Of a DNA stretch of 64,000 nucleotides, positions 1-3,000 are shown piece by piece. Numbering within the stretch: position 1 is the first letter of the stretch; the number at the start of each line of letters is the position of its first letter. Made by a program: the position numbers. The DNA is from Escherichia coli O127:H6 str. E2348/69 (GTDB lineage Bacteria > Pseudomonadota > Gammaproteobacteria > Enterobacterales > Enterobacteriaceae): NCBI RefSeq assembly GCF_000026545.1, contig NC_011601.1. One strand, 5' to 3'.

Positions 1-3000
1 GCAACGGCACGACCGCTTTCCAGGGTACGGAAAGAGTCACCGTGATCTTTGGCGCTGATGATGCGCATATTCATTTTTTGCTCTTCATTCAGTTTGTTGA
101 GCAAAACTTCAGAGGTGGTGCCGGAAGTGACGACTACGGCTTTGCCTTTCAGGTCGGCAAAATCTTTGATATCGCCGCCCTTTTTGGTCAGCAGGCGCGT
201 ACCGACCACGAAAATAGTGTCAGAGAAAGCCGCCTGTTTTTGGCGTTCGGCATTGTTGGTGGTAGAACCGCATTCAAAATCGAAAGTGCCGTTTTGCAGC
301 AGTGGAATACGGTTTTGTGAGGTGATCGGAATCAATTTCACCTGTAAGTCTGGTTTGTTGAGTTTCTTTTTCACTGCTTCAACAATGGCGTTGGAGTAAT
401 CCTGCGAGTAGCCCACCACTTTTTGCTGATTGTCGTAATAAGAGAAAGGTACTGAAGATTCACGGTGACCGACGACAATCACGCCGTTTTTGGCGATTTT
501 GTCCAGCGTGCTGCCTGCTGCCGGGGCGGCGTCATCTGCCTGTGCCAGTCCTGCGGAAAGCGCCAGGGCCAGGATTGCTGTGGCAGGTTTACGTAATTGC
601 ATATCCAACTCCTTTATCTTCTGCGTTAAAAACGCATGGATACCCGTTGTGAGTGTTTGTGTTGTTATCATCTGCGACTTTATTGTGCAGTGTTGTGTTT
701 GTTAGGTAACATTTAGTTTGGATAAATGTAAAGATATTGATGTTTTATTGTTTATTTTTGCGAGGTGCGCCGCACCATTCCGAAGCAAAATTCTTAAACC
801 GCACCTTTTTGGTGCTACCGCTGATTTGTGGTGGTGCAACCCGGTTGCGTTGCGGCTGATTTCATTGCTTACACAGTAAATAAAGCAACTTACATGCCAA
901 AAAATACTTAGGGGTGAATTAATTACGATTGTAATTTCAGTTTGAAAAAGTCATATTTCGGACAGTGTTAACTTTTCGGTGTGGGACGTTTGCCGGGATG
1001 ATAACTACACACGGGAAAATGCTTTTTACTAGTCTTTTCAAGGAAGAATCACCTTATGTCTGCATCTTCGGTTAAGCCGTTAAATGTTCAATTACCCGCA
1101 ATAACCCTGATCCTTTTTGCGCTCTGTGTTGGGATATTTTGTTACCTCGCACAATGGATGAGTTACGAAGAAGTCGATCAATCCGCACTCATCCATCTCG
1201 GCGCTAACGTTGCCTCTCTCACGTTGTCGGGTGAACCCTGGCGCTTATTGAGCAGTGTCTTTCTGCACAGTAGTTTTTCCCATTTGCTGATGAATATGTT
1301 TGCACTCCTGGCGGTGGGGACAGTAGCGGAACGGATACTGGGGAAATGGCGACTCCTGATTATCTGGTTATTCTCCGGCATCTTTGGTGGGCTGATCAGC
1401 GCCTGTTATGCGTTACGCGAAAGTGAGCAGATAGTCATCAGCGTTGGGGCATCCGGGGCAATTATGGGAATAGCGGGCGCTGCGATAGCAACACAGCTTG
1501 CTTCAGGTGCGGGCACACACCATAAAAACCAGCGGCGAGTATTTCCTCTGTTGGGTATGGTGGCGCTGACACTGTTGTATGGTACCCGGCAAACAGGAAT
1601 AGATAACGCTTGCCACATTGGCGGCCTGATTGCGGGGGGCGCGTTGGGTTGGCTGAGTGCGCGTTTAGTTGGGCAAAATCGGCTCGTTACGGAAGGCGGG
1701 ATTATTGTTGCGGTCACTCTTCTTCTGACCGGGACTATCTGGCTTGTGCAGCAGCAGATTGATGAATCAGTTTTACAGGTCAGGCAAAGCCTGCGTGAAG
1801 CGTTTTATCCGCAGGAGATTGAACAAGAGCGACGACAAAAAAAGCAGCAGTTAGTGGAGGAGCGCAACGCCCTCAGGGAAACATTATCCGCTCCGGTAAG
1901 TCGTGAGCAGGCCAGTGGTGATTTACTCGCTGAGATTGCCGATATCCATGATATGGCGATCAGTCGGGATGCTAATACGTTGTATGCCGCAATTGAAAAC
2001 ACGAACAGCATTGTTGTTTTCGACCTCGGACAAAAGAAAATCCTGCATACCTTTACAGCGCCCATAGCGAAAGAAAAGTCAGTCAAACATTGTGGTGGCT
2101 GTAAAGATCAGGGCGTCAGATCGATGGCATTAAGCCTGGATGAAAAGTTGATTTATGCGACTTCATTTGAAGCGAATGCGTTATCGGTCATTAACGTGGC
2201 GACGGGGGAGATTATTCAGTCGATTACCACCGGCGCACATCCTGACAGCCTTATCCTCTCGTGTGATGGCACAAAAGCCTGGGTGATGAATCGCACCAGC
2301 AATAGTGTGTCAGCGATTGATCTGGTGGCTTATCAGCATGTGGCGGATATCCCGCTGGAGAAATACGACGGGACGGGGATGAGCGGTAAACCAGGCGCCT
2401 GGGTTATGGCACTTTCCCCGGATGAAAAAACATTACTGGTTCCGGGAGCAGGCAGAGGTAACATCGTGCGGTTCAATACCATCACGCATCAGAAAGAAGA
2501 CTTTCCCGCAGGTAATGCGCGTGGTGTCGTTTCTGCGATGGGATTCCGACCAAAAAATGGTGAGGTTATTTTTGCCGATAGCCAGGGGATTTCACGTATA
2601 AGAGCAGAGGATCAACAAGCCAGCATTATGACGCAATGGTGTCGCAGGAGCGTTTATTCCGTTGAGGGTATTAGCCCGGACGGTCAGTATTTAGCGTTGG
2701 TGTCATATGGCCTGCAAGGTTATGTCATCCTGCTCAATATTAATGCCGGGCAGATTATTGGCGTTTATCCTGCCAGCTACGTTAATAATCTTCGTTTTTC
2801 AGCGGATGGTAGAAAGATATTTGTTATGGCGAAGAACAGGTTAATCCAAATGGACAGGACGCGCTCGATTGATCCGCAGGCAATTATTCGGCATCCCCAA
2901 TATGGCGATGTGGCTTGTATCCCTGAAACGTAAGAAAAAAGGGGCATGATAATCATGCCCCACAACTCAATGAGAAAGTATGTTTTGTTGATACCGGATG

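What the first reader, a model, noticed from the sequence alone, without database searches (positions are those of the whole stretch)
764..842. NtrC-like enhancer repeats in the gltI / rhomboid-fusion intergenic region
GGTGCGCCGCACC (764-776), CGCACCTTTTTGGTGCT (800-816) and GGTGCAACC (around 831-839) resemble the TGCACC-N5-GGTGCA NtrC site, about 160-240 bp upstream of the gltI start. This would fit nitrogen control of the glutamate/aspartate transporter, but the divergent rhomboid-fusion gene shares this region and could also be affected.
Basis: partly seen in the sequence, partly recalled or inferred. Interest (0 to 1): 0.35.

Follow-up and report, generated by a model that had tools for sequence, protein, structure and literature searches.

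The report
NtrC enhancer of the gltI promoter
The repeats are real binding sites for the nitrogen regulator NtrC that switch on the glutamate/aspartate transporter operon; this regulation is already known, but the sites sit downstream of the sigma-54 promoter they serve, which is unusual.

Summary
The window is E. coli E2348/69. The three motifs are present as described. They form three NtrC-type sites in the gltI leader: A 822-838, B 800-816 (strongest) and C 771-787.

The sigma-54 promoter whose absence would have refuted the idea exists: TGGCATGTAAGTTGCT at 884-899 on the minus strand, pointing at gltI. It is the top sigma-54 matrix hit in the 64 kb.

Published work covers the orthologous K-12 and Salmonella sites:
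- sigma-54 ChIP and NtrC ChIP-seq (55-fold peak)
- NtrC and RpoN genomic SELEX
- rpoN-dependent ybeJ (gltI) expression in CFT073 and EDL933
- nitrogen-limited induction of gltI-sroC in strains without the K-12 IS5 insertion

Nitrogen control of gltIJKL is therefore correct and already known.

New here is the geometry. The promoter lies on the far side of the sites, so the enhancer is at about +44, +66 and +95 in the transcribed leader. It sits between the sigma-54 promoter and a probable sigma-70 promoter. All 81 Enterobacteriaceae gltI loci examined share this arrangement. The other K-12 NtrC-regulon promoters where the scan found sites (8 of 12) have them upstream.

The divergent rhomboid-fusion gene is a lineage-specific insertion with no sigma-54 promoter, so it is not a target.

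The parts
884..899 (-). Sigma-54 promoter TGGCATGTAAGTTGCT. The -24 GG is at 897-898 and the -12 GC at 885-886. It points toward gltI.
   Evidence: It is the only hit with one mismatch or fewer to TGGCACG-N4-TTGCW in the window. It ranks first with a sigma-54 matrix, 15.9 bits. TGGCA(C/T)-N5-TTGC(A/T) is present in all 81 gltI loci. The orthologous K-12 site TTGGCACATCTATTGCT and the Salmonella site TGGCACGTCTATTGCTTT are bound by sigma-54 in ChIP.
872..874 (-). Predicted sigma-54 transcription start, giving a gltI leader of about 271 nt
   Evidence: Inferred from the usual 12-nt distance from the -12 C at 885. No start-site data were available for this strain.
822..838 (.). NtrC site A, TGCACCACCACAAATCA on the gltI strand. 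The left half is strong and the right half weak. Centre about +44.
Evidence: The GCAC at 834-837 is invariant in 22 genera. It is a full site in some species, for example Trabulsiella TGCACCATCGCGGTTCA. It is detected at +43 to +45 in 43 of the 81 loci.
800..816 (.). NtrC site B, CGCACCTTTTTGGTGCT, the main dyad. Centre +66.
   Evidence: Two mismatches to the consensus. NtrC matrix rank 1 in the window. The GC.C and GTGC core bases are invariant with a variable spacer. A site scoring at least 11.9 bits is present in all 81 loci.
771..787 (.). NtrC site C, TGCTTCGGAATGGTGCG on the gltI strand. Centre +95, 29 bp from site B.
   Evidence: Matrix rank 11 in the window. GTGCGG at 770-775 is invariant. 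It is the stronger site in several Citrobacter species, 16.4 bits.
764..776 (.). Palindrome GGTGCGCCGCACC: the right half of site C plus an inverted extra half-site
   Evidence: There is no compensatory change that would indicate an RNA hairpin. The role of the extra half-site is unknown.
733..763 (-). Nearly invariant A/T-rich block, TCGCAAAAATAAACAATA... on the gltI strand
   Evidence: Invariant columns. Function unassigned. It may be an upstream element or a site for another factor acting on the sigma-70 promoter.
703..732 (-). Probable sigma-70 promoter: -35 TTTACA at 727-732, an 18-nt spacer, and an extended -10 TGtTACCTA at 703-711
   Evidence: TTTACA and TG.TA.C.A are invariant in 22 genera. 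A published statement says gltIJKL has both sigma-70 and sigma-54 promoters. The strict consensus scan found no promoter-like site here, so this is an inference.
702..705 (.). TTAG, the target site where IS5 is inserted in K-12. There is no insertion in this strain.
   Evidence: K-12 flanks are read. IS5 separates both promoters and the enhancer from gltI. SroC induction is reported as only marginal in K-12 for this reason.
603..700 (-). Proximal gltI 5' UTR: stem-loop 672-690, C/A-rich GcvB target region about 641-670, stem-loop 621-638, Shine-Dalgarno AAGGAG 609-614
   Evidence: Both stems show compensatory changes across genera. [quoted passage not shown] The NtrC-like hit at 673-689 coincides with the first stem and is probably RNA structure.
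1..602 (-). 5' part of the gltI coding sequence, with the start codon at 600-602
   Evidence: RefSeq annotation of the identical E2348/69 sequence.

Best explanation
This is the NtrC-dependent enhancer of the sigma-54 promoter of the gltI-sroC-gltJKL operon.

Proposed mechanism:
1. RNA polymerase with sigma-54 sits as a closed complex on TGGCAT-N5-TTGCT at 884-899 on the minus strand.
2. Under nitrogen limitation, phosphorylated NtrC assembles on three sites centred at about +44, +66 and +95 (822-838, 800-816, 771-787).
3. NtrC reaches the promoter by looping 60-115 bp of DNA from the downstream side and uses ATP to open it.
4. Polymerase then transcribes through the enhancer and through a probable sigma-70 promoter (703-732). 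This makes a gltI mRNA with a leader of about 271 nt.
5. Output is more glutamate/aspartate uptake. SroC is cut from the same mRNA, so GcvB-controlled amino-acid transporters are also relieved from repression.

Shown here or in print: the motifs and their conservation, sigma-54 and NtrC occupancy of the orthologous DNA, and rpoN- and nitrogen-dependent expression.

Inferred: the exact start site, that activation occurs from the downstream sites, and the position of the sigma-70 promoter.
For: Sequence:
- The sigma-54 promoter is the only hit with one mismatch or fewer and the top matrix hit in the window.
- NtrC site B is the top matrix hit in the window.

Conservation:
- All 81 Enterobacteriaceae loci have the promoter 287-439 bp before the ATG, mostly 287-310.
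- All have NtrC sites downstream of it. Only 2 loci have an upstream hit (8.6 and 11.4 bits) in the sequence scanned.
- NtrC hits are enriched 220-fold over the flanking DNA.
- Half-sites are invariant and spacers variable.

Promoter-to-site-B distance:
- Site B is centred at +65 to +67 in most loci.
- The exceptions are +78/79, +89, +97/98 and +101. These are longer by about 12, 23, 31 and 35 bp, close to whole helical turns.

Experiments on orthologous DNA:
- Sigma-54 ChIP-seq peak OS04 in K-12, motif centre 688459, fold-above-threshold 21.
- Sigma-54 ChIP-chip in Salmonella.
- NtrC ChIP-seq peak at 688381-688461, 55-fold, which maps to about window 815-895.
- NtrC and RpoN genomic SELEX peaks in the same spacer.

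Expression:
- ybeJ (gltI) falls at least 2-fold in rpoN deletion mutants of CFT073 and EDL933.
- SroC is induced by nitrogen limitation in Salmonella, O157 and O111, but only marginally in K-12, where IS5 intervenes.

No other sigma-54 motif lies between the sites and gltI or on the opposite strand.
Against: - No transcription start, footprint or mutational data exist for this strain. None of the papers I could read assigns individual NtrC sites at gltI.
- ChIP-seq resolution (80-bp bins) cannot separate sites A-C from cross-linking at the promoter.
- Site scores in this single sequence are within reach of chance at the 64-kb scale.
- An enhancer inside the transcribed region could hinder elongation. 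Whether polymerase passes bound NtrC freely is untested.
- The helical-phasing pattern rests on about four independent indel events and is not statistically firm.
- In most species the 3' end of lnt carries a weak NtrC-like match, TTCACCCGnnnGGTGCT, about 250 bp upstream of the promoter. Coding constraint cannot be separated from a possible site there. In this strain that element is 2.3 kb away (3199-3215).
Confidence: 0.85

Rival explanations
1. The NtrC sites act mainly on the downstream sigma-70 promoter or on elongation. Bound NtrC would repress or modulate it, or block read-through, as NtrC represses glnAp1 and glnLp. Activation of the sigma-54 promoter would then need other or no specific sites.
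For: The sites lie between the two promoters, about 84-135 bp upstream of the predicted sigma-70 start. NtrC is known to repress sigma-70 promoters at glnA (my own knowledge). This role could coexist with activation.
Against: The sites do not overlap the probable -35 or -10 elements. NtrC-dependent induction needs an enhancer, and these are the only conserved sites within looping range. Their distance from the sigma-54 promoter mirrors that at glnAp2 (+66/+95 against -108/-140).
Confidence: 0.1
2. The inverted repeats are conserved as RNA hairpins in the long leader rather than as protein-binding DNA.
For: They are transcribed from the sigma-54 promoter and could form 5-bp stems. The 764-776 palindrome keeps 98% pairing when G-U wobble pairs are counted.
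Against: None of 10 pairs shows a change on both sides, and covariation is no better than in shuffles. The fifth pair of site B is broken in 6 of 22 genera. The two proximal 5' UTR stems, by contrast, do show compensatory changes. No Rfam family matches. NtrC binds this DNA in vivo and in vitro.
Confidence: 0.03
3. The sites control the divergent rhomboid-fusion gene at 1056-2933.
For: They lie 218-292 bp upstream of its start codon, a workable enhancer distance.
Against: There is no sigma-54 promoter on that strand (best 3.4 bits; no hit with 3 or fewer mismatches). The gene is present in only 2 of 80 other species and about 60% of E. coli genomes, while the module is universal. K-12 and O157 lack the gene but keep the sites.
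Confidence: 0.02
4. The motifs are chance matches with no function.
For: Motif counts across the window do not exceed expectation.
Against: Conservation in 81 of 81 loci with 220-fold local enrichment. ChIP-seq and SELEX data.
Confidence: 0.01

Closest known systems
glnAp2 enhancer of E. coli and Salmonella (NtrC sites 1 and 2)
   Same: The same activator and the same 17-bp dyad. There are two or more adjacent sites about 2-3 helical turns apart. They lie about 85-115 bp from a sigma-54 promoter and are paired with a sigma-70 promoter for basal expression. The same scan recovered the glnA sites at -140 and -108.
   Different: At glnA the sites lie upstream of the sigma-54 promoter and overlap the upstream sigma-70 promoter. 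At gltI the order is reversed: sigma-54 promoter first, then the sites at +44 to +95, then the probable sigma-70 promoter.
Other NtrC-regulon promoters of K-12 (glnH, glnK, nac, astC, rutA, yhdW, patA)
   Same: gltIJKL belongs to the same published regulon and has NtrC and sigma-54 ChIP peaks.
   Different: In these seven and glnA, the NtrC-like sites found by the same scan lie upstream, at -87 to -266, apart from four extra 3-mismatch matches outside that range. No sites were found at ddpX, yeaG, argT or potF. gltI is the only locus whose sites are all downstream.
Sigma-54 promoters with unusually long leaders (nagB-internal promoter for nagE, rlmD-internal promoter for relA)
   Same: A sigma-54 promoter far from the start codon, a long 5' UTR, and a second sigma-54-independent transcript. 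The nagB one lies in this window at 16909-16925.
   Different: Those promoters lie inside an upstream gene. For relA the NtrC-binding region is far upstream. The gltI promoter is intergenic and its enhancer lies inside its own leader.
Enhancers placed or found downstream of sigma-54 promoters (relocated glnA sites; FlbD ftr elements in Caulobacter; some Myxococcus activators)
   Same: An enhancer-binding protein acting from the transcribed side. From my own knowledge, Reitzer and Magasanik (1986) showed that relocated NtrC sites work downstream of the promoter. I did not re-check this here.
   Different: Those cases are engineered constructs or involve other activators and other bacteria. Here it would be the native, conserved arrangement for enteric NtrC.

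Membership tests
Sigma-54 (RpoN)-dependent promoter | A -24 GG and a -12 GC element with exact spacing, matching TGGCAC-N5-TTGCW | tested here: met
   TGGCATGTAAGTTGCT at 884-899 on the minus strand has one mismatch. It scores 15.9 bits and ranks first; the training median is 16.2.
Sigma-54 (RpoN)-dependent promoter | Conserved motif and orientation in orthologous loci | tested here: met
   Present in 81 of 81 gltI upstream regions, always pointing at gltI. The core columns are invariant.
Sigma-54 (RpoN)-dependent promoter | Sigma-54 holoenzyme occupancy and rpoN-dependent transcription | not testable with these tools
   Published for orthologues: ChIP-seq in K-12, ChIP-chip in Salmonella, and lower ybeJ in rpoN mutants of CFT073 and EDL933. 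Not measured in E2348/69.
NtrC (GlnG) enhancer | A 17-bp dyad resembling TGCACC-N5-GGTGCA | tested here: met
   Site B has 2 mismatches and scores 16.3 bits, within the range of 13 sites from other Ntr promoters. Sites A and C each have one strong half.
NtrC (GlnG) enhancer | Two or more nearby sites that allow oligomer assembly | tested here: met
   Centres at +44, +66 and +95, with 22- and 29-bp spacing conserved across genera.
NtrC (GlnG) enhancer | Within looping range of a sigma-54 promoter | tested here: met
   The site centres lie 62-113 bp from the middle of the -24/-12 region.
NtrC (GlnG) enhancer | Position upstream of the promoter (usual, not obligatory) | tested here: not met
   All three sites lie downstream of the predicted start. 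The eight other K-12 Ntr promoters where the scan found sites have them upstream.
NtrC (GlnG) enhancer | NtrC occupancy under nitrogen starvation and nitrogen-dependent induction of the target | not testable with these tools
   Published for orthologues: a 55-fold ChIP-seq peak, genomic SELEX, and SroC induction in Salmonella, O157 and O111.
Structured RNA leader element (considered as a rival) | Compensatory base changes that keep the helices | tested here: not met
   None of 10 pairs changes on both sides, and the covariation score equals that of shuffles. No Rfam match.

The most novel reading that the evidence does not exclude
gltI may be a native case, conserved across the family, of an enteric NtrC enhancer placed inside the transcribed leader. 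The sites are at +44 to +95, between a sigma-54 and a sigma-70 promoter, with promoter-to-enhancer length changes close to whole helical turns. This layout may be forced by the short lnt-gltI spacer. I found no paper in the searchable library that describes it. If it is real and undescribed, it offers a natural system for two questions: how an activator hexamer works from the downstream side, and what happens when polymerase transcribes through its own enhancer. The same sites might also tune the downstream sigma-70 promoter.
Probability: 0.35. Interest if true: 0.5.

Novelty: already known. Interest (0 to 1): 0.33.

Why it matters
NtrC and sigma-54 control of gltIJKL is established, so the finding mostly confirms that a raw-sequence reader can spot a real enhancer.

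Two points add value:
- This strain shows the intact ancestral locus. In K-12, where most experiments were done, IS5 cuts the enhancer and both promoters away from gltI. As a result the sigma-54 and SELEX tables I read list the site under insH3/insH rather than gltI.
- The enhancer sits downstream of its promoter in every Enterobacteriaceae species examined. That is the opposite of the other NtrC-regulon promoters where sites were found, and it is directly testable.

The same transcript also yields the SroC sponge RNA. This module therefore links nitrogen status to the wider GcvB regulon.

Tried and rejected
None was found, and there are no invariant GG/GC elements there.
- Looked for a sigma-54 promoter facing the rhomboid-fusion gene. 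None was found.
- The strict sigma-70 consensus scan of 560-1100 found nothing. The sigma-70 promoter is therefore inferred from conservation only.
- My first cluster statistic for NtrC hits was uninformative because overlapping positions were counted. I replaced it with the rank argument and the cross-species enrichment.
- Reitzer and Schneider 2001, Zimmer 2000 and Sharma 2007 were not held. The Miyakoshi 2015 supplement was not held either. I could not check whether the site positions or the gltI sigma-70 start are already tabulated.
- The NtrC-like hit at 673-689 was considered as a fourth site. I rejected it in favour of an RNA stem in the 5' UTR, because the stem shows compensatory changes in the Enterobacter and Leclercia group.
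- The Rfam scan of 1-3100 found nothing.
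Full report
IDENTITY AND LAYOUT

The window is 100% identical over 541 bp to E. coli E2348/69. On the minus strand, gltI starts at 602 with its start codon at 600-602. On the plus strand, a 625-aa rhomboid family gene runs 1056-2933. It has a Rhomboid domain at residues 59-201 and weak beta-propeller matches after that. On the minus strand, lnt occupies 3066-4607. The finding lies in the 453-bp spacer at 603-1055.

THE OBSERVATION

All three motifs are present. GGTGCGCCGCACC is at 764-776 and CGCACCTTTTTGGTGCT at 800-816. GGTGCAACC is at 833-841, 2 nt from the stated position. They lie 162-240 bp from the gltI start.

Simple counting in the window does not beat chance. 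There are 32 matches with up to 3 mismatches against 36 expected. There are two exact GCAC-N7-GTGC cores against 1.9 expected.

I built a weight matrix from 13 NtrC-like sites of other K-12 Ntr promoters. With it, 800-816 is the best position in the window at 16.3 bits, inside the 11.3-20.0 range of the training sites. The best score in randomised sequence averages 14.4 +/- 1.4, so this alone is only suggestive. Sites 673-689 and 771-787 rank 6th and 11th.

THE SIGMA-54 PROMOTER

One is present: TGGCATGTAAGTTGCT at 884-899 on the minus strand.
- It is the only match in 64 kb with one mismatch or fewer.
- It is the top hit of a matrix built from 35 published E. coli sigma-54 sites, with the gltI site left out.
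- The second hit of that scan, 16909-16925 on the plus strand, is letter for letter the published nagB-internal promoter for nagE. This validates the scan.

The gltI-side promoter points at gltI, but it lies beyond the NtrC sites. With the -12 C at 885, the start is predicted near 873 and the leader is about 271 nt. That places the three NtrC-type sites at about +44 (A, 822-838), +66 (B, 800-816) and +95 (C, 771-787). The 764-776 palindrome is the right half of site C plus an abutting inverted half-site.

COMPARISON ACROSS SPECIES

A GltI-based search returned 80 loci from different Enterobacteriaceae species.
- Every locus has TGGCA(C/T)-N5-TTGC(A/T) 287-439 bp before the ATG, mostly 287-310, oriented toward gltI.
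- Every locus has NtrC-matrix hits downstream of the promoter. Only 2 loci have an upstream hit (8.6 and 11.4 bits) in the sequence scanned.
- Hits of at least 12 bits occur at 8.9 per kb in the homologous stretch against 0.04 per kb elsewhere in the loci. All 80 loci have at least one.
- In an alignment of 22 genera, the sigma-54 core, the GCAC of site A, the GC.C and GTGC of site B and the GTGCGG of site C are invariant. The site spacers and the roughly 55 bp between promoter and site A vary freely. This is the footprint expected of protein-binding DNA.
- An RNA-hairpin reading of the dyads gains no support. None of 10 pairs has a change on both sides, and covariation equals that of shuffles.
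- Site B is centred at +65 to +67 in most loci. The exceptions are +78/79, +89, +97/98 and +101. These are about 12, 23, 31 and 35 bp longer, close to whole helical turns. That fits a looping constraint, but it rests on about four independent events.

COMPARISON WITHIN THE REGULON

I ran the same scan on twelve other K-12 NtrC-regulon promoters, anchored on their published sigma-54 motifs.
- It recovered the known glnA sites at -140 and -108.
- It found sites upstream at glnH, nac, glnK, rutA, astC, yhdW and patA, at -87 to -266.
- Four further 3-mismatch matches fall outside that range: glnK -289, rutA -332, glnK -192 and yhdW +119.
- It found no sites at ddpX, yeaG, argT or potF.
- Only gltI, in both K-12 and E2348/69, has its sites at +44, +66 and +95.

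PUBLISHED EXPERIMENTS ON THE ORTHOLOGOUS DNA

In K-12, IS5 is inserted at the TTAG that corresponds to window 702-705. The enhancer and promoter therefore sit on the far side of IS5, next to lnt. After converting coordinates:
- The sigma-54 ChIP-seq motif OS04 (TTGGCACATCTATTGCT, centre 688459, minus strand, fold-above-threshold 21, EcoCyc status 'P') is the orthologue of 884-900. It is listed with insH3 as the downstream gene.
- The NtrC ChIP-seq peak assigned to gltIJKL (688381-688461, 55-fold, fifth strongest of 21) maps to about window 815-895.
- Genomic SELEX gave both RpoN and NtrC peaks in the insH-lnt spacer.
- In Salmonella LT2, sigma-54 ChIP-chip found TGGCACGTCTATTGCTTT at gltI.

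On expression:
- ybeJ (gltI) falls at least 2-fold in rpoN mutants of CFT073 and EDL933, and is described there as having a known sigma-54 promoter.
- gltIJKL is stated to have sigma-70 and sigma-54 promoters.
- SroC, which is cut from the gltI mRNA, is induced by nitrogen limitation in Salmonella, O157 and O111. Induction is only marginal in K-12 because of IS5.

THE REST OF THE LEADER

Downstream of site C lies an almost invariant A/T-rich block at 733-763, of unknown role. Next comes a probable sigma-70 promoter: -35 TTTACA at 727-732, an 18-nt spacer, and an extended -10 TGtTACCTA at 703-711. It is conserved but does not pass a strict consensus scan. The K-12 IS5 sits in this -10 region.

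The proximal 5' UTR contains two stem-loops with compensatory changes at 672-690 and 621-638. It also contains the C/A-rich GcvB target and the Shine-Dalgarno at 609-614. The NtrC-like hit at 673-689 coincides with the first stem and is better explained as RNA structure.

THE DIVERGENT GENE

The rhomboid-fusion gene is present in about 60% of E. coli genomes (3,235 of 5,426). Among the 80 other species it occurs in only two, both Escherichia. In the rest, lnt ends 340-450 bp upstream of gltI in the same orientation. K-12 and O157 lack the gene but keep the module. No sigma-54 promoter faces it, so it is not a plausible NtrC target. In most species the sigma-54 promoter is only about 60-130 bp from the end of lnt. 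This may explain why the enhancer lies on the downstream side.

MECHANISM AND VERDICT

The best reading is an NtrC enhancer that activates the gltI sigma-54 promoter by looping from the downstream side. Polymerase then reads through the enhancer and the sigma-70 promoter into gltI-sroC-gltJKL.

Shown, here or in print: the motifs, their conservation, sigma-54 and NtrC occupancy of the orthologous DNA, and rpoN- and nitrogen-dependent expression.

Inferred: the start site, activation from these particular sites, and the sigma-70 promoter.

A secondary role of the sites on the sigma-70 promoter or on elongation remains possible. The regulation itself is already known. The downstream placement of the enhancer and its universality are what I could not find described. 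Several key older papers were not available to check this.

Noticed in passing
window 16909-16925 (+): CTGGCCTGCTTTATGCA ranks second with the sigma-54 matrix. It is identical to the published sigma-54 promoter inside nagB (antisense to nagB) that drives nagE with a long leader.
   Followed up: partly
window 14448-14464: TGCACCGAAGTAGTGCT is the only other exact GCAC-N7-GTGC in the window and ranks second with the NtrC matrix (14.3 bits). It lies about 2.46 kb upstream of the nagB-internal sigma-54 promoter, in the gene beyond nagA (nagC by K-12 gene order, not verified). It could be chance or a distant enhancer for that promoter.
   Followed up: no
window 1056-2933 (+); haplotype boundary near 847: A rhomboid protease fused to a beta-propeller-like C-terminal part is present in about 60% of E. 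coli genomes and in two other Escherichia species. It is absent from K-12, O157 and 78 other species. Strains with and without it differ sharply from about 847 onward, and that stretch includes the sigma-54 promoter (TGGCATGTAAG... against TGGCACATCTA...).
   Followed up: partly
window 702-705; L002 1352-2546: In K-12, IS5 is inserted at this TTAG, inside the probable sigma-70 -10 region. It separates both promoters and the enhancer from gltI. As a result the sigma-54 ChIP-seq and SELEX tables I read list this sigma-54 site under insH3/insH.
   Followed up: yes
window 621-638 and 672-690 (-): Two stem-loops in the gltI 5' UTR show compensatory base changes across genera. One lies just before the Shine-Dalgarno and one just before the C/A-rich GcvB target.
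   Followed up: partly
window 733-763 (-): The block TCGCAAAAATAAACAATA... between NtrC site C and the probable -35 element is almost invariant across 22 genera. I could not assign a factor or function to it.
   Followed up: no
window 20040-20056 (-): The sigma-54-like motif CTGGAAAGAATATTGCA (14.1 bits, third in the window) lies inside an SLC13 family permease gene. That gene sits next to sialidase and NanQ-family genes beside nagE.
   Followed up: no
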